Source of the DNA: a phage
DNA: 64,000 nucleotides
Strand: one strand, 5' to 3'
Sequence record: PZ386959.1
The notes under the pieces: model-generated
What the model saw: the letters and a program-made list of their open reading frames with translations, nothing else
What the model was told of the DNA's origin: nothing
The model's database searches: none
Translations under genes and position numbers: made by a program
In this document: piece after piece, positions 8,730-34,472 of the stretch
Position numbering within the stretch: the first letter of the stretch is position 1
How the letters are laid out: every line of letters starts with the position of its first letter

Positions 8730-10082
8730 ATGTGGAATCCAATTGTTAATGTAGATATTACATTGAACACCGCAGGAACTACAAGAGAAGGTTTTGGTTT
8801 GCCACTATTCTTAGCTTCAACAGATAATTTTGAAGAAAGAGTACGTGGTTACACTTCCTTAACTGAAGTTGCTGAAGATTTCGATGAAAATACTGCTGCA
8901 TATAAGGCTGCTAAACAACTTTGGAGTCAGACTCCTAAAGTAACTCAGCTTTATATTGGTAGACGCGCTATGCAGTACACTGTATCAATTCCTGATGCCG
9001 TTACTGAAAGCACAGACTACTCAATTACTGTAGCTGCTGGCGGTGGAATTTCTCAACCATACCAGTACACAGCACAAGATTCAGACACTGCTGAGGTAGT
9101 GTTGCAACAGTTTAAAACACAGATTGAAGCTGACCCAACAATCAAAGATAAGGTTTCTGTGAATGTAACTGGTAGCAATGGCTCTGCCACAATGATTATT
9201 ACCAAAGCTGGTGATAATGACTTTGTGAAAGTAACAACCACAGCACAGACTGTATATATTGCAAGTACAACTGCCGATACAGCATCAACTGCTCTGGCAG
9301 CTATCGAAGCTTATTCTACAGACTGGTATTTCATTGCAGCAGAAGACAGAACTCAACAGTTTGTCTTAGCAATGGCTTCTGAGATTCAGGCTCGCAAGAA
9401 AATCTTCTTTACAGCTAACTCCGATGTAACAGCCCTGCAAGGTACAGAATTAGCCAGTGCAAATGATGTTCCAGCACAGCTTGCTAAGAATATGTACACT
9501 CGTACAGTTTGCTTGTGGCATCACGCAGCAGCAGAAGACTATCCAGAGATGGCATACATTGCTTATGGTGCTCCATATGATGCAGGTTCAATTGCTTGGG
9601 GTAATGCTCAGCTAACTGGTGTAGCAGCTTCTCTACAACCATCTAATCAGAGACCTCTGACAAGTATTCAGAAGTCTGCTTTAGATGTACGTCACTGTAA
9701 CTTTATTGACCTTGATGGTGGTGTTCCAGTGGTTCGTAGAGGGATTACTTCTGGTGGGGAATGGATTGATATCGTCCGTGGCGTTGACTGGTTAGAATCA
9801 GACCTGAAAACTTCTCTGAGAGACTTGCTAATTAACCAGAAGGGTGGTAAGATTACTTATGATGATACTGGTATTACCCGTATTCGTCAAGTCATTGAAA
9901 CCTCTCTACAAAGAGCAGTCAACAGAAACTTCCTGTCATCTTACACAGTTAATGTTCCTAAAGCCTCTCAAGTTGCTTTGGCAGACAAGAAAGCTCGTAT
10001 CCTGAAAGACGTTACCTTCGCAGGTATCTTAGCAGGTGCTATCTTGGATGTTGACTTGAAAGGTACAGTGGCTTACGAATAA
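8730..10082 (+). CDS. tail sheath protein (putative)
   Basis: 450-aa ORF followed by a 148-aa tube-sized ORF, the chaperone pair and the tape measure; this is the canonical myovirus order. Confidence 0.45.
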   Translation: MWNPIVNVDITLNTAGTTREGFGLPLFLASTDNFEERVRGYTSLTEVAEDFDENTAAYKAAKQLWSQTPKVTQLYIGRRAMQYTVSIPDAVTESTDYSITVAAGGGISQPYQYTAQDSDTAEVVLQQFKTQIEADPTIKDKVSVNVTGSNGSATMIITKAGDNDFVKVTTTAQTVYIASTTADTASTALAAIEAYSTDWYFIAAEDRTQQFVLAMASEIQARKKIFFTANSDVTALQGTELASANDVPAQLAKNMYTRTVCLWHHAAAEDYPEMAYIAYGAPYDAGSIAWGNAQLTGVAASLQPSNQRPLTSIQKSALDVRHCNFIDLDGGVPVVRRGITSGGEWIDIVRGVDWLESDLKTSLRDLLINQKGGKITYDDTGITRIRQVIETSLQRAVNRNFLSSYTVNVPKASQVALADKKARILKDVTFAGILAGAILDVDLKGTVAYE

Positions 10083-10097
10083 TAGAGGTAAATTGGA

Positions 10098-10544
10098 ATG
10101 GCTATGTATCAGCAATATTCCCCTAAAGACGTTGTATGTAGCTGGAATGGTATTGCCATTGAAGGCTTTGCCCCAGATTCATTCTTGCGTCTACAGAGAA
10201 CATCACCGCTTGTGACACCAGTTGTTGGTGCAGGTGGTCAGGTTGCTCTGACAAGAAATGCAGACAAGACAGGTACTATTGAGATTGAGCTAATGCAGAC
10301 TTCTCTCTCTAACCAGATGCTTTCTGCAATTCAAGCTAAACAAGACAATATGGAACTTGAAGAAGATATCTCTTCTAACTTCGTAATCTACGACCCATCA
10401 GGCTCTGTTCTGGCAACTGGTATTAATGCTTGGTTGCAGGAATTACCGCAGATTGAACTTGGTCGTGACCAGAACTCTAAAACTTGGATTTTTGGTTGTG
10501 AGAAGCTAGACTACACTTCTACAATTCCAGCGTCAAGTGTTTAA
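10098..10544 (+). CDS. tail tube protein (putative)
   Basis: 148-aa ORF after the sheath candidate, followed by a strong terminator; position only. Confidence 0.45.
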   Translation: MAMYQQYSPKDVVCSWNGIAIEGFAPDSFLRLQRTSPLVTPVVGAGGQVALTRNADKTGTIEIELMQTSLSNQMLSAIQAKQDNMELEEDISSNFVIYDPSGSVLATGINAWLQELPQIELGRDQNSKTWIFGCEKLDYTSTIPASSV

Positions 10545-10554
10545 TAAATACTAT

Positions 10555-10588
10555 AAGGGGGAGACTTTAAAAGGTCTTCCCCTTTTTT
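10555..10588 (+). terminator. rho-independent terminator after the tail tube gene
   Basis: GC-rich stem GGGGGAGAC / GTCTTCCCC with loop TTTAAAAG, followed by TTTTTTGTTT. Confidence 0.6.
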
Positions 10589-10617
10589 GTTTCTTTTAAA
10601 AGTATTAAGGAATCACA

Positions 10618-11016
10618 ATGAAAACAGAATCTAGAGTAATTAATGGTAAGAAAGTAAATATCGTTCTGCTTGGGGCAAGAGATGGTATTAAGATGTCTAT
10701 GAAGTTGGGTAAAATTGTTGTTCCAACCTTTGCACAGATGCTATCAAGTCTGACTGACAAGGGTAAGAAGGAAGCTCCAATGGTTCCATTTAAAGAACTT
10801 GTTGAAGCTTGTTTTGACAGAATTGAAGAAATTAACCTTGAAGAGATGGCTACCCTGTTATTTCAAGGGGCAACTGTTGATAACTTCCCACTTAATATTG
10901 ATACATACTTCCAAGCAAACTATGGTGAATTTATTGATTACTTAGCATTTGCGCTGGAGGCAAACTTCGGAAGTTTTTTCGAAGCAAGCATTTTCAAAAG
11001 CCTAACTTCTCAGTAA
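10618..11016 (+). CDS. tail assembly chaperone (gpG-like)
   Basis: Lies immediately upstream of the tape measure gene; contains the slippery heptamer T_TTT_TTC at 10974-10980 near its 3' end. Confidence 0.5.
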   Translation: MKTESRVINGKKVNIVLLGARDGIKMSMKLGKIVVPTFAQMLSSLTDKGKKEAPMVPFKELVEACFDRIEEINLEEMATLLFQGATVDNFPLNIDTYFQANYGEFIDYLAFALEANFGSFFEASIFKSLTSQ

Positions 11017-11018
11017 AC

Positions 11019-11257
11019 ATGGGTAACACTCTACAGACACCACTAACTGATGCTGCTGTAGAGGCAACCTATGAAGAAGCAGACGAGATGAAATTTGTGC
11101 TTGCTATTTATGGTATGGAAGGGTGTAAAGAAACACTTGACCAACTCTTTGCTATGACATTCTCTGATTTATTATCATTGAGACAATTTCTTGAGATTCA
11201 GAGGTCGTATAAAGAGGAAATTGCTTACAACGAACTTAGAAGAGCAGGAAAAATGTA

Positions 11258-11258
<1 letters not shown>
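11019..11258 (+). CDS. tail assembly chaperone frameshift extension (gpGT-like)
   Basis: Its reading frame is -1 relative to the upstream chaperone and is open from 10938; no convincing Shine-Dalgarno before its own ATG; its stop overlaps the tape measure ATG. Confidence 0.45.
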
Positions 11259-19277
<8,019 letters not shown>

Positions 19278-31576: not shown

Positions 31577-34276
31577 TCAGTGAACCTCAAGCCAACTCTT
31601 TCCAACCTTACCTGTACCAGTTACAAGTGTTTCTTTCTTAAGACCTAAGTTCTTAGAAGCTTGCCCGTAATACCAATCAGTAACTGCTTTTACTTCTGCC
31701 GTCATACTCTCTGGACATTCCCAGCTAGTCTCATCGTGATATGCGCACAATAAGCGAGCACCTATAGCTGGTTTACGCCCATTTAGCTTCATCAACCCTT
31801 CGTCAATCATGCGACGACAAGCAAGGTTAATTGCCTCATTTTGAATCTGGGCCTCTGAACCCATCAAAAGGTAGTTCAACAGTTTGTGTGGAGATTTACA
31901 CCACAACCAAGCTCCAGCAACCTTTACAAAACCCCCTTTAGAGATTGCAGCAGTCTTACCAAACACCTCTTCAAGTGCCTTTTTAGTTGCTTTGTAGTCA
32001 GCTTCCAAGTCATCTAGTAGCTTCTTAATTTTAGGCAAACGAATAAAGTAAGTTTGTTTAGTCAGTGCACCTTCCTGAGTAGTTGCAGCTTTAATCGTCT
32101 TAGCAAACTTCTCATCCCCTGCACCGAACAGCAGTGCATAGATACCATTCTTAGCTTTCTTACGGCCTTTGCTAATCTCATGAAGAAGGTTCTCATCCTG
32201 AGTAGCTCGACAAGTCAAGATGTCCTGCTCATCATTCAAGCTAAAGTAAATACTGTTCAGTGTATGTGCATCAGTCCCTGAATAGACAACGTACAGGTCA
32301 TTCTCAGAGTCATAGCGAAGGTACTTATCAATCTCTGGGTTGAGGTACTCATCAAAATGTTTGCAGTAATAGCGTCCATCTTCTTGACGAATAAACTCAA
32401 TCTCTTCTTTACCTTGCGTTACCGCTTTGGTGAACTCTTTATCACCCATAAAGTTACAAAGAAGAACTAGCTGGGCTGAGTTCATATCTACAGAGACAAC
32501 GTTAGTACCTTCCTCACAAATCCACACTGCCCTCATTGGTTCCCCATAGACAGCAGCACCAGACGGTACGTTTACAATACCATATTGTGTCATACGTCCA
32601 GTTGAAGTACCAAACACCATTGCGCCAGCACTAAGGCGACCATCAGGACGAATCTGGTTCAACCAACCTTTTTCATCATCCTTTGAGTTCTCAATAGTTC
32701 TGCGTCTGTGCATCAAAGTATAGTACTTAGCAATCTTCTGTCCAAGCTCACCTTCAATCGTATCATAAGATGATTCCGTAAGTTTTGGTGAAGTACGGAT
32801 TAAGCAAGGTTCAAGCAAATCTGTGTACTTCTTCACAGACCAGTTATGCTCGATGTACTGGACGCCTTCATGCTCGACATAACTCAATCCACACCGTTCT
32901 ACCATCTCCTGCCACTTAGGATGTTTTGTAATCATCTTTTTATTGTCTTTGAAACGACAAACTTTGACAGGGCGACCGTCTGAGTCTTTCTTGTAGTTCC
33001 AGTCATCTGGAATCCAACCAACTGATTTCAAGTAGTCTTTTACAACTGCTACCTGAGTCATACGAGAAACTTCAAACTCAATTGGTGTATATGGTGCATC
33101 AATCAATCCTGTGTAGCGACTTGACTCAAGTTCAAAGTGGTTAACAACGTGGCTGTTATAGTACTTCACAGTTTTGACTGTTTTTACTGGCTTCCAGTCT
33201 TTGCATTTCTTACCAATCTTTGCATTCAACTCATTGCAAATTGCACGAGCATCCTTCATTGCTACAAAGCCTTCCTTGTACTCTTCACCAGTTACAGAGT
33301 TGGTTGGTGTATAGCAATTTCTCTTTTCAATGTTAAAAATCTTTGTAGTTGGCTTACCAAATGGTTTGATTTCATAAGTCTGCATCTCACCATTACGCAC
33401 CTGCTGACGATACTTCGTCTTAGGGTACTTGGTAATTCTTTTCAGTCCATCTGCATGACCAAATGCTTCAACATACTCATTCCAAGCTTTTGCAAACTCT
33501 TCTCCAGTGACTTTACCTTTGGTCTTAATAGTTGGAGGTAGATGTGGTTCAACCTCTGAAGCAAGCTCATTAGTCAACTTGTCAAGTTCCTTTACATGGA
33601 ACTCCATAAGCTCTTTATCAGCTTTCCAACCATTGATAGCTTGTTGACTCATCCAGAAAGATGTTTCTTTAGCTCGCATATAGGTTTCATAAGTGTCTAT
33701 ACCACACTTCTTAAGCTTCAGGTATTCATTATCCAGTGCACGTTTAGTTTTGGCGTTAATACGGATATCTTCTACAACACGAGTGAAGATTTCTGCATTC
33801 CACACACCCCAATGTTCAATCTCTGGTTTACGGACACCAACACGAGCACCCCATGCAGCCAAGCCATGAGCACCTTTATAGCCTTTTGGAGTTGGTCTAT
33901 CCATCCACTGAACACGAGACTGGATAAGAGAATCCTGAAAGAAATTACTCCACGGTTTACACTTTGGATTATCAAAGTTCCACAAATCAGGTGCAATGTG
34001 ATTGAAAACCCACCAGTCATATCCTAGACCATTGTGGATGCAAAGTCGTTTTGCCTTTAACGCAAACTCAATACCTTCACGTAAGCCGCCCTTAATGTAC
34101 TTGGTATACTTGTGACCGAGGATAGGCTCATCTGTAAAGACCCATACAGGTGGCTCTTCATCGTCAGATTTATAGTCTGCGAAAGCCATTACGTGCACTT
34201 TAGTGAACTCAAGGAGTAAACCATCAGTTTCTGTATCACCAACTAAATGTAAGTTTTTAAAATCTACGTTTTCCAT
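31577..34276 (-). CDS. DNA polymerase, family A, with 3'-5' exonuclease domain
   Basis: Exo I motif DTETDGL near the N-terminus; motif B-like RKKAKNGIYALLFGAG and motif C-like YHDE; start moved to MENVDF (RBS GAGGGAG upstream) rather than the track start at 34306. Confidence 0.8.
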   Translation of the reverse strand: MENVDFKNLHLVGDTETDGLLLEFTKVHVMAFADYKSDDEEPPVWVFTDEPILGHKYTKYIKGGLREGIEFALKAKRLCIHNGLGYDWWVFNHIAPDLWNFDNPKCKPWSNFFQDSLIQSRVQWMDRPTPKGYKGAHGLAAWGARVGVRKPEIEHWGVWNAEIFTRVVEDIRINAKTKRALDNEYLKLKKCGIDTYETYMRAKETSFWMSQQAINGWKADKELMEFHVKELDKLTNELASEVEPHLPPTIKTKGKVTGEEFAKAWNEYVEAFGHADGLKRITKYPKTKYRQQVRNGEMQTYEIKPFGKPTTKIFNIEKRNCYTPTNSVTGEEYKEGFVAMKDARAICNELNAKIGKKCKDWKPVKTVKTVKYYNSHVVNHFELESSRYTGLIDAPYTPIEFEVSRMTQVAVVKDYLKSVGWIPDDWNYKKDSDGRPVKVCRFKDNKKMITKHPKWQEMVERCGLSYVEHEGVQYIEHNWSVKKYTDLLEPCLIRTSPKLTESSYDTIEGELGQKIAKYYTLMHRRRTIENSKDDEKGWLNQIRPDGRLSAGAMVFGTSTGRMTQYGIVNVPSGAAVYGEPMRAVWICEEGTNVVSVDMNSAQLVLLCNFMGDKEFTKAVTQGKEEIEFIRQEDGRYYCKHFDEYLNPEIDKYLRYDSENDLYVVYSGTDAHTLNSIYFSLNDEQDILTCRATQDENLLHEISKGRKKAKNGIYALLFGAGDEKFAKTIKAATTQEGALTKQTYFIRLPKIKKLLDDLEADYKATKKALEEVFGKTAAISKGGFVKVAGAWLWCKSPHKLLNYLLMGSEAQIQNEAINLACRRMIDEGLMKLNGRKPAIGARLLCAYHDETSWECPESMTAEVKAVTDWYYGQASKNLGLKKETLVTGTGKVGKSWLEVH

Positions 34277-34472
34277 TTTTACTCCCTCTAAAATCATTAA
34301 CCTCATACATTACTGCAAAAAATTATAAAAAGCAAGTTGACAATGTACTTGACAAGGTGTTAATCTTTGCGAAGTGGGTTTTTACTTAAAAGGTTACTTA
34401 ACAGTTTAACTATACAGATACTTTAAAACTCTTAAAAGATTATTTAATAGCTTTTAAAAAGCTTTAAAGTAT

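What the first reader, a model, noticed from the sequence alone, without database searches (positions are those of the whole stretch)
10938..11258. Programmed -1 frameshift site in the tail assembly chaperone pair
The heptamer T_TTT_TTC (10974-10980) lies in the zero frame of ORF 10618-11016, twelve codons before its stop. The -1 frame is open from 10938 and continues into ORF 11019-11258, which lacks a convincing ribosome-binding site and whose stop overlaps the tape measure ATG. This matches the conserved G/GT-type frameshift of tailed-phage chaperone genes and would give a fusion of roughly 214 aa in addition to the 132-aa product.
Basis: partly seen in the sequence, partly recalled or inferred. 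Interest (0 to 1): 0.45.

Follow-up and report, generated by a model that had tools for sequence, protein, structure and literature searches.

The report
Tail chaperone frameshift site, already annotated
This is the standard programmed -1 ribosomal frameshift that lets a Felix O1-like phage make a short and a long tail-assembly chaperone from one start codon; the site is real and well conserved, but the same site is already annotated in a sister phage, so it is ordinary.

Summary
T_TTT_TTC sits at 10974-10980 in the zero frame of the 132-aa chaperone ORF (10618-11016). The -1 frame is open from 10938 to 11258 and ends in TAATG on the tape measure start. ORF2 (11019-11258) has no Shine-Dalgarno. 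The fusion is 213 aa, not 214.

The window is a Felixounavirus (97-98% identical to many records). Gene order is sheath, tube, chaperone pair, tape measure.

The frameshift reading is strongly supported by comparison:
- T_TTT_TTY is kept in the shifty frame, with an open -1 ORF, in 35 of 36 IMG/VR relatives. It is also kept in rV5-like, phiTE and Alteromonas phages with only 27-32% protein identity.
- Several relatives have no start codon for the downstream part, and one Felixounavirus contig has ATG changed to ATA.
- Synonymous sites after the heptamer are frozen.
- Among 62 in-frame slippery heptamers in the window, this one has by far the longest -1 extension.

No conserved downstream stem-loop exists. 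An upstream GGAGG and a 121-nt long-range fold are clade-specific candidates only.

The site is already known. The identical junction is deposited for Salmonella phage Mushroom (AJF40599.1) and for Mordin, Michonne and Moogle, and is mentioned in their genome announcements. I found no experimental proof in this phage group.

The parts
10618..11016 (+). G-like tail assembly chaperone ORF (zero frame), 132 aa, 14.8 kDa
   Evidence: Pfam PF21822 Phage_TAC_15, E 1.9e-19, covering residues 9-124. PHROG 1613 tail assembly chaperone, E 2.9e-48. SD duplex -6.1 kcal/mol.
10974..10980 (+). Slippery heptamer T_TTT_TTC, with P-site TTT and A-site TTC before the slip
   Evidence: Sequence and frame. It is the only in-frame TTTTTTC on the + strand. 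It is invariant in 22 distinct Ounavirinae-type sequences. It is kept as TTTTTTC or TTTTTTT in rV5-like, phiTE and Alteromonas-type relatives, where the preceding codon is AGT, ACT or TGT and always ends in T.
10972..10999 (+). 28-nt block AGTTTTTTCGAAGCAAGCATTTTCAAAA that is almost invariant; read in two frames (FFEASIFK in frame 0, FFRSKHFQK in frame -1)
   Evidence: Alignment A2 columns 29-56: only 2 variable columns across 22 sequences, including phiEa21-4, whose chaperone is 40% identical. It is the only stretch that blastn finds between the window and the Erwinia phages (query 404-444). Codons for identical amino acids are the same in 9/9 cases here, against 20/40 upstream (Fisher p 0.005).
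10980..11258 (+). T part: -1 frame read after the slip, 92 codons plus a stop; includes the 13-codon linker RSKHFQKPNFSVN and ORF2
   Evidence: The linker pattern [KR]-x-F-[QR]-K-P is shared with the rV5-like phage FV3 although the nucleotides differ.
11019..11258 (+). ORF2 as usually annotated (79 aa). ATG lies 2 nt after the ORF1 stop, with no SD
   Evidence: PHROG 4963, E 2.8e-55. SD duplex +0.7 kcal/mol, weaker than all 56 reference ORFs. The ATG is ATA in L016 and no start codon exists in phiEa21-4 or LPML1.
10956..10960 (+). [quoted passage not shown]
   Evidence: It meets the Sharma et al. [quoted passage not shown] It is present in Felixounavirus, Mooglevirus, Suspvirus and FV3, with SD-like motifs at 12-13 nt in L044, L045 and L048. 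It is absent from P778, LPML1, phiEa21-4, L009, L047 and phiTE.
10984..11104 (+). Candidate long-range RNA domain closed by GCAAGCAUUUUCA / UGAAA(UUU)GUGCUUGC, starting 3 nt after the heptamer (inconclusive)
   Evidence: -36.3 kcal/mol over 121 nt. Only 1 of 55 random positions gave a more stable qualifying hairpin. The 120-nt fold has z -1.84. There is no covariation, and pairs break in P778, LPML1 and the three Erwinia-type sequences. The alignment consensus fold does not recover it.
11258..13486 (+). Tape measure protein gene, the presumed client of the chaperones
   Evidence: PHROG 4036, score 1532; Pfam TMP_3, E 7.8e-17.
10098..10544 (+). Tail tube gene, presumed partner of the T part by analogy (context)
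   Evidence: Pfam KPP10_Orf10, E 3.2e-7; PHROG 280, E 1.2e-47. It follows the sheath gene 8730-10082 (PHROG 205, E 3e-122).

Best explanation
Ribosomes start at ATG 10618 and translate the chaperone gene. Most terminate at TAA 11014-11016 and release the 132-aa G-like chaperone.

A minority slip while tRNA-Phe occupies both the P site (TTT 10975-10977) and the A site (TTC 10978-10980). Both tRNAs move back one base and re-pair with TTT TTT (10974-10979). Decoding then continues in the -1 frame from CGA 10980 through the linker RSKHFQKPNFSVN and the whole of ORF2 to TAA 11256-11258. The product is a 213-aa GT-like fusion with the same N-terminus.

By analogy with lambda G/GT and P2 E/E+E', the shared G part coats the tape measure protein, and the rarer T extension recruits the tube protein. 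Tail length and assembly would then depend on a fixed G:GT ratio set by slip efficiency, and neither protein would end up in the virion.

Shown here: the sequence anatomy, the family membership of the parts, and evolutionary conservation of the signal. Inferred: that the slip occurs, how efficient it is, and what the two products do.
For: 1. Anatomy: the heptamer is in the shifty frame, the -1 frame is open from 36 nt upstream of it to the tape measure ATG, and ORF2 has no SD.
2. Context: sheath, tube, TAC (PF21822), ORF2 (PHROG 4963), tape measure.
3. Uniqueness: it is the outlier among 62 in-frame heptamers in the window.
4. Conservation of the heptamer: T_TTT_TTY sits at the homologous FF dipeptide with an open -1 ORF reaching or nearly reaching the tape measure gene in 35 of 36 IMG/VR loci. 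It is also present in P778, LPML1, phiEa21-4, Alteromonas PT11-V22, phiTE and FV3. The base before the run is T in three different codon families: AGT, ACT and TGT.
5. Where the slip can occur: stops in the -1 frame lie only 2 codons upstream of the heptamer in P778 and L045. The zero-frame stop lies 11-35 codons downstream. The shift is therefore confined to a short window that contains the heptamer.
6. No independent start: phiEa21-4, L043, LPML1, L009, L045, L047, L048, phiTE and FV3 have no plausible start codon ahead of the conserved T core. Felixounavirus contig L016 has ATA in place of ATG 11019.
7. Synonymous sites are frozen from the heptamer onward, and the -1 linker peptide is conserved at protein level in FV3.
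8. Heptamer type: U_UU.C is the second most shift-prone A-site motif in E. coli, and all-pyrimidine heptamers are generally favourable (Sharma et al. 2014, PMC4066793).
9. Prior annotation: my predicted junction for Mushroom, Mordin and Michonne is exactly the deposited protein (AJF40599.1/YP_009600435.1; AKU44019.1/YP_009177317.1). Moogle's 212-aa fusion, AIW03804.1, is in the same cluster.
10. Negative control: an in-frame A_AAA_AAG inside the tape measure gene (11545) is not conserved in Mooglevirus or Suspvirus.
Against: - I found no experiment (junction peptide, reporter assay or mutant) for any Felix O1-like phage. The literature holds only one-line statements in genome announcements.
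- No conserved downstream stimulator exists. In E. coli, heptamers without stimulators gave only 2-10 times a 0.055% background, so efficiency could be very low unless the GGAGG or the long-range fold helps.
- In this window ATG 11019 lies 2 nt after the ORF1 stop, so termination-reinitiation could also make free ORF2 product.
- In Mooglevirus an ATG with a good SD (-7.2 kcal/mol) precedes the T core.
- Most database records annotate two separate genes.
Confidence: 0.9

Rival explanations
1. ORF2 is made only as a separate 79-aa protein. It would start at ATG 11019 by termination-reinitiation coupled to the ORF1 stop 2 nt upstream. On this view the T-run is simply the codons of a conserved Phe-Phe dipeptide.
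For: The stop and start are 2 nt apart. Most GenBank and RefSeq records annotate two genes. Mooglevirus has an ATG with a decent SD ahead of the T core.
Against: ORF2 has no SD: +0.7 kcal/mol, weaker than all 56 reference ORFs. The ATG is not conserved. It is ATA in L016, only a TTG is available in P778, and no start codon exists in phiEa21-4, L043, LPML1, the Alteromonas-type loci, phiTE or FV3. The -1 frame stays open 40-154 nt upstream of the ORF1 stop in every relative with the T-run heptamer, which a separate gene would not need. The base before the run is always T at a synonymous site. Synonymous sites downstream of the heptamer are frozen.
Confidence: 0.04
2. The fusion is made, but by transcriptional slippage. 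RNA polymerase would add one extra U in the T6 run, giving a minority mRNA in which ORF1 and ORF2 are in frame.
For: The slip site is a homopolymer (T6; T7 in the Alteromonas-type relatives). One inserted U has the same coding outcome as a -1 ribosomal shift.
Against: From established knowledge (Atkins et al. 2016 review, PMC5009743, and work cited there), efficient bacterial RNA polymerase slippage needs runs of about 8-9 or more. This run is 6. It is kept at exactly 6-7 and always in the X_XXY_YYZ register relative to frame 0. That register matters for tRNA re-pairing and not for polymerase slippage. P2 E/E+E', with TTTTTTG, is described as a translational frameshift (PMC3091744).
Confidence: 0.04
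3. Both routes operate in this phage. Frameshifting would give GT, and reinitiation at ATG 11019 would give some free T, so three products are made.
For: ATG 11019 is present in almost all Felixounavirus sequences, 2 nt after the stop.
Against: There is no SD. L016 lacks the ATG. In the studied systems (lambda, per PMC5009743) the T part is reported only as part of GT.
Confidence: 0.2

Closest known systems
Salmonella phage Mushroom (Felixounavirus) tape measure chaperone, joined CDS AJF40599.1 / YP_009600435.1; also Citrobacter phages Mordin/Michonne (AKU44019.1, YP_009177317.1), Moogle (AIW03804.1) and Mijalis
   Same: Same gene pair, same heptamer, same junction (...ANFGSFF|RSKHFQKP...). 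The -1 part of Mushroom is identical in amino acids to the window. My predicted fusions match the deposited proteins exactly. [quoted passage not shown]
   Different: The window's own 213-aa fusion is not in the protein collection, and its nearest relatives annotate two separate genes. The published statements are annotations by analogy, not experiments.
Bacteriophage P2 E / E+E' (contractile tail)
   Same: A -1 frameshift on a T6-type heptamer (TTTTTTG) near the end of a small chaperone gene next to the tape measure gene of a myophage. There is no downstream RNA structure (PMC3091744, citing Christie et al. 2002 and Xu et al. 2004).
   Different: The last base is G in P2 and C here. The proteins are 91/142 aa in P2 and 132/213 aa here. 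No sequence relationship was tested or seen; ORF1 belongs to Pfam Phage_TAC_15.
Bacteriophage lambda G / GT
   Same: The founding example: a -1 shift near the end of G makes GT at about 1:30. The G part binds the tape measure protein, the T part binds the major tail protein, and both are absent from virions (PMC5009743). The gene position, between the major tail gene and the tape measure gene, is the same.
   Different: Lambda is a siphovirus, and its heptamer is G_GGA_AAG (my recollection, not checked here). No sequence similarity was detected.
E. coli dnaX and IS911/IS3 -1 frameshift signals
   Same: An X_XXY_YYZ heptamer with an SD-like element upstream. GGAGG at 14 nt falls within the 6-17 nt range used by Sharma et al. 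2014.
   Different: Those signals have a proven hairpin or pseudoknot 4-10 nt downstream. Here no conserved structure exists, and the GGAGG is not conserved across the family.

Membership tests
G/GT-type tail assembly chaperone frameshift (Xu, Hendrix and Duda 2004) | Two overlapping ORFs located between the major tail (tube) gene and the tape measure gene | tested here: met
   Sheath 8730-10082, tube 10098-10544, ORF1 10618-11016, ORF2 11019-11258, tape measure 11258-13486.
G/GT-type tail assembly chaperone frameshift (Xu, Hendrix and Duda 2004) | The upstream ORF is a tail assembly chaperone | tested here: met
   PF21822 Phage_TAC_15, 70.8 bits against a cutoff of 22. PHROG 1613 and 3840.
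G/GT-type tail assembly chaperone frameshift (Xu, Hendrix and Duda 2004) | The downstream ORF is in the -1 frame, open across the end of the upstream ORF, and lacks its own initiation signals | tested here: met
   The -1 frame is open 10938-11258, a 79-nt overlap. SD duplex +0.7 kcal/mol. The start codon is absent in several relatives.
G/GT-type tail assembly chaperone frameshift (Xu, Hendrix and Duda 2004) | A slippery X_XXY_YYZ heptamer in the zero frame inside the overlap | tested here: met
   T_TTT_TTC at 10974-10980.
G/GT-type tail assembly chaperone frameshift (Xu, Hendrix and Duda 2004) | The arrangement is conserved in divergent relatives although the proteins diverge | tested here: met
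   35 of 36 IMG/VR loci and 10 GenBank phages, down to 27% identity. Synonymous-site conservation.
G/GT-type tail assembly chaperone frameshift (Xu, Hendrix and Duda 2004) | Both the short and the frameshifted long protein are actually made, at a fixed low ratio | not testable with these tools
   Needs a western blot, MS or a reporter assay. No such data were found in the literature.
G/GT-type tail assembly chaperone frameshift (Xu, Hendrix and Duda 2004) | Both products are required for tail assembly and are absent from virions; G binds the tape measure protein and T binds the tail tube protein | not testable with these tools
   Inferred only by analogy with lambda (PMC5009743).
Stimulated bacterial -1 PRF signal (dnaX / IS911 type) | [quoted passage not shown] | tested here: met
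   GGAGG 10956-10960, at 14-15 nt. It is not conserved in P778, LPML1, phiEa21-4, L009, L047 or phiTE, so its function is uncertain.
Stimulated bacterial -1 PRF signal (dnaX / IS911 type) | A hairpin or pseudoknot starting 4-10 nt after the motif, conserved or covarying | tested here: inconclusive
   A 121-nt domain (10984-11104, -36.3 kcal/mol) formally qualifies and ranks about second among 56 positions. However, 40% of random positions also qualify, there is no covariation, pairs break in distant relatives, short-range folds have positive z-scores, and there is no consensus structure.
Transcriptional slippage site | A homopolymer run long enough for RNA polymerase slippage (about 8-9 or more in bacteria; from established knowledge) | tested here: not met
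   The run is T6 here and T6-T7 in all relatives.

The most novel reading that the evidence does not exclude
In the Felixounavirus/Mooglevirus/Suspvirus clade the heptamer may not act alone. The GGAGG 14 nt upstream, together with the long-range helix GCAAGCAUUUUCA/UGAAA-GUGCUUGC that closes a 121-nt domain starting 3 nt downstream, would form a clade-specific dnaX-like three-part signal. That signal would set a higher or tunable G:GT ratio than in relatives that lack both elements (P778, LPML1, phiEa21-4).
Probability: 0.2. Interest if true: 0.3.

Novelty: already known. Interest (0 to 1): 0.12.

Why it matters
The main value is for annotation. Most Felixounavirus records, including the window's nearest relatives and several RefSeq entries, list two separate chaperone genes and omit the 213-aa fusion, so the joined CDS should be propagated. 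A few records mislabel ORF1 as a head closure protein.

The comparison also gives one of the broader conservation series for a U6-type chaperone frameshift. It spans Ounavirinae, Vequintavirinae and marine Alteromonas-type myophages. It also supplies natural variants that lack an ORF2 start codon.

Felix O1-like phages are used for Salmonella typing and biocontrol. Anyone engineering or recoding this region must keep the heptamer and the two-frame block 10972-10999 intact.

Tried and rejected
- **Local downstream stem-loop.** Folds of 50, 80 and 121 nt around and after the heptamer have positive z-scores. The alignment consensus fold gives -8.2 kcal/mol with no covariation downstream. Rejected as a conserved element.
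- **Hairpin enclosing the heptamer** (CUUCGGAA/UUUCGAAG). It is not conserved in P778, LPML1 or phiEa21-4, and a translating ribosome would melt it. Rejected.
- **Weak terminator-like hit at 10954-10970 followed by the T-run**. It has 6 pairs including 2 G-U, the region gave 4 hits against 3.4 expected, and it is not conserved. Rejected as a terminator.
- **Rfam scan of 10400-11500.** Only sub-threshold chance hits.
- **PDB sequence search with the fusion.** Nothing meaningful; best E 0.3.
- **Search of the large protein database with the fusion.** It returned only 124-136-aa unfused G homologues. The deposited fusions were found only by exact look-up.
- **Second slippery site.** A_AAA_AAG in the tape measure gene (11545) has a 7-codon -1 extension and is not conserved. 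Incidental.
- **Phage tRNA-Phe that might modulate slipping.** The window has no tRNA genes.
- **Literature.** Searches for experimental evidence in Felix O1-like phages found only annotation statements.
- **Not run.** Structure prediction and fold search, because they would not bear on whether the shift occurs.

Full report
**What the window is.** The 4.8-kb region around the finding is 97-98% identical to many Felixounavirus genomes, the Felix O1-like myophages of Escherichia and Salmonella. The local gene order is:
- tail sheath, 8730-10082 (PHROG 205, E 3e-122);
- tail tube, 10098-10544 (PHROG 280; Pfam KPP10_Orf10);
- ORF1, 10618-11016;
- ORF2, 11019-11258;
- tape measure protein, 11258-13486 (PHROG 4036; Pfam TMP_3).

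ORF1 is a Pfam Phage_TAC_15 tail assembly chaperone (E 1.9e-19). ORF2 matches PHROG 4963, also labelled tail assembly chaperone (E 2.8e-55).

**Checking the observation.** Every coordinate in the finding holds.
- ORF1 codons run AGT (10972), TTT (10975), TTC (10978), so TTTTTTC at 10974-10980 reads T_TTT_TTC in the zero frame.
- TTC is codon 121 and the stop is codon 133.
- The -1 frame has a TGA at 10935-10937 and is open from 10938 to the TAA at 11256-11258. That stop overlaps the tape measure ATG as TAATG.
- ORF2 lies in that -1 frame, and its ATG comes 2 nt after the ORF1 stop.
The short product is 14.8 kDa.
- "No convincing RBS" is quantitatively true. The best anti-SD duplex upstream of ATG 11019 is +0.7 kcal/mol. 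That is weaker than all 56 ATG-started ORFs of at least 100 aa on the + strand (median -6.15) and weaker than the median random position.

**More than chance.**
- ORFs of at least 100 aa in the window contain 62 in-frame X_XXY_YYZ heptamers. This one has by far the longest -1 extension: 94 codons, running 242 nt past the ORF end to the next gene's start codon.
- The next longest extension is 45 codons. The only other heptamer that passes its ORF end extends 29 codons and 68 nt, in an ORF antisense to a 909-aa gene.
- TTTTTTC is depleted in the window: 10 copies against 26.5 +/- 5.7 expected. Two are on the + strand, and only this one is in the shifty register.

**Comparative evidence.** I collected the homologous locus from GenBank phages and from 36 IMG/VR contigs.
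- Heptamer conservation:
  - T_TTT_TTC or T_TTT_TTT lies at the homologous Phe-Phe dipeptide, in the shifty register, with the -1 frame open to (or nearly to) the tape measure start, in 35 of the 36 IMG/VR loci.
  - It is also present in Mordin, Silverhawkium, SUSP2, Yersinia phage P778, LPML1, Erwinia phage phiEa21-4, Alteromonas phage PT11-V22, Pectobacterium phage phiTE and the rV5-like phage FV3.
  - The last three share only 27-32% chaperone identity with the window.
- The base before the T-run is always T, although the codon that carries it differs (AGT, ACT, TGT).
- In P778 and L045 a -1 frame stop lies two codons before the heptamer, and zero-frame stops follow 11-35 codons after it. 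The frame change is therefore confined to a short window that contains the heptamer.
- Many relatives have no plausible start codon ahead of the conserved core of the downstream part: phiEa21-4, L043, LPML1, the Alteromonas-type loci, phiTE and FV3.
- P778 offers only a TTG. One 87-kb Felixounavirus contig (L016) has ATA where the window has ATG 11019.
- A 28-nt block, 10972-10999, is nearly invariant across 22 distinct sequences. It is the only stretch blastn finds between the window and the Erwinia phages.
- Within that block, codons for identical amino acids are the same in 9 of 9 cases, against 20 of 40 upstream.
- The -1 frame linker pattern [KR]-x-F-[QR]-K-P recurs in FV3 with different nucleotides, so the constraint is most simply two-frame coding.
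- As a control, an in-frame A_AAA_AAG inside the tape measure gene is not conserved even in Mooglevirus and Suspvirus.

**Mechanism.** The best-supported reading is a tandem -1 slip of two tRNA-Phe from TTT-TTC to TTT-TTT. Decoding then resumes at CGA 10980.
- In E. coli, U_UU.C is the second most shift-prone A-site tetramer, and all-pyrimidine heptamers are generally favourable (PMC4066793).
- Without stimulators, heptamers gave only 2-10 times a 0.055% background in that study. Efficiency here is therefore unknown.

**Stimulators.** I applied the criteria of the same study.
[quoted passage not shown] It is present in Felixounavirus, Mooglevirus, Suspvirus and FV3, but absent from P778, LPML1, phiEa21-4, L009, L047 and phiTE.
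- Downstream, short-range folds are no better than shuffles, and the alignment has no consensus structure.
- A 121-nt domain at 10984-11104 is closed by GCAAGCAUUUUCA pairing with UGAAA(UUU)GUGCUUGC. It formally qualifies, and only 1 of 55 random positions gave a more stable hairpin.
- However, 40% of random positions also qualify, there is no covariation, and the pairs break in the distant relatives. I treat both elements as clade-specific candidates only.
- The lack of a stimulator fits the class: P2 E/E+E' slips on TTTTTTG with no downstream structure (PMC3091744).

**Rivals.**
- Independent initiation or reinitiation as the sole route to ORF2 is contradicted by the missing SD, the non-conserved start codon, the long open overlap and the synonymous-site pattern. 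Some reinitiation in addition to frameshifting cannot be excluded for this phage.
- Transcriptional slippage is unlikely on a T6 run that is held in the ribosomal register.
- A weak terminator-like hit that uses the T-run is at chance level and is not conserved.

**Comparison with what is known.** This is a member of the G/GT-type chaperone frameshift class (lambda G/GT, P2 E/E+E'; PMC5009743; PMC3091744). The site itself is already annotated.
- Salmonella phage Mushroom, a Felixounavirus, carries a two-piece joined CDS at the homologous position, as does Citrobacter phage Mordin.
- The fusions I predicted from the heptamer are exactly the deposited proteins AJF40599.1/YP_009600435.1 (Mushroom) and AKU44019.1/YP_009177317.1 (Mordin/Michonne). 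Moogle's 212-aa fusion AIW03804.1 falls in the same cluster.
- The Moogle and Mijalis announcements state the frameshift.
- Most other records, including the window's nearest relatives and RefSeq entries such as Alf5, list two separate genes. The window's own fusion sequence is not in the protein collection.
- I found no experimental demonstration for this phage group.

**Verdict.** Its value lies in annotation hygiene and in a well-documented conservation series. Confidence in the frameshift is 0.9 and interest is 0.12.

Noticed in passing
window 10555-10594 (+): A strong intrinsic-terminator-like hairpin (13-bp stem, 6 G-C pairs, then TTTTGTTTCT) lies between the tail tube gene and the chaperone gene. 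It would lower transcription of the chaperone and tape measure genes relative to sheath and tube. The records of Mordin and the KhF phages annotate a terminator here.
   Followed up: partly
L016 (IMGVR_UViG_3300045988_004167), locus 1902-1904, homologous to window 11019-11021: This 87-kb Felixounavirus contig has ATA in place of the ORF2 start codon ATG, while the heptamer and the -1 frame are intact. It is a natural start-codon knockout, or a sequencing error.
   Followed up: partly
GenBank GU169904.1, OK283618.1 (L012), MG065666.1, MG065672.1: Host labels look wrong. 'Staphylococcus phage SA1' carries a segment 97% identical to this Felix O1-like region. 'Listeria phage LPML1' is classified in Ounavirinae and its TAC-tape measure module matches this one. 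Two 'Campylobacter' phages are rV5-like coliphage relatives. A Staphylococcus hyicus assembly also holds the 132-aa chaperone.
   Followed up: no
Relatives of window 10618-11016: The chaperone ORF1 is labelled 'Hc1 head closure protein', 'head closure protein' or 'tape-measure protein' in several records (VpaE1_ev78, SUT_S820, C600M2, BPSELC-1). These look like off-by-one annotation transfers.
   Followed up: no
window 11545-11551 (+), inside the tape measure gene: An in-frame A_AAA_AAG, the most efficient E. coli slippery heptamer, with a -1 extension of only 7 codons. It is not conserved in Mooglevirus or Suspvirus (GGT AAG AAA / GGT AGA AAA), so it is probably incidental.
   Followed up: yes
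window 1-64000: TTTTTTC is about 2.6-fold depleted (10 copies against 26.5 +/- 5.7 in dinucleotide shuffles). Eight of the ten are on the - strand, which is antisense for most genes here. This suggests selection against T6 runs in coding sense.
   Followed up: partly
window 34006-34012 (+): An in-frame A_AAC_CCA near the end of ORF 33596-34027 has a 29-codon -1 extension running 68 nt past the ORF end. The ORF lies antisense to the 909-aa gene 31577-34306 and is probably not a gene.
   Followed up: no
window 1-64000: ARAGORN finds no tRNA genes in the window, so the tRNA cluster typical of Felix O1-like phages lies outside these 64 kb.
   Followed up: no
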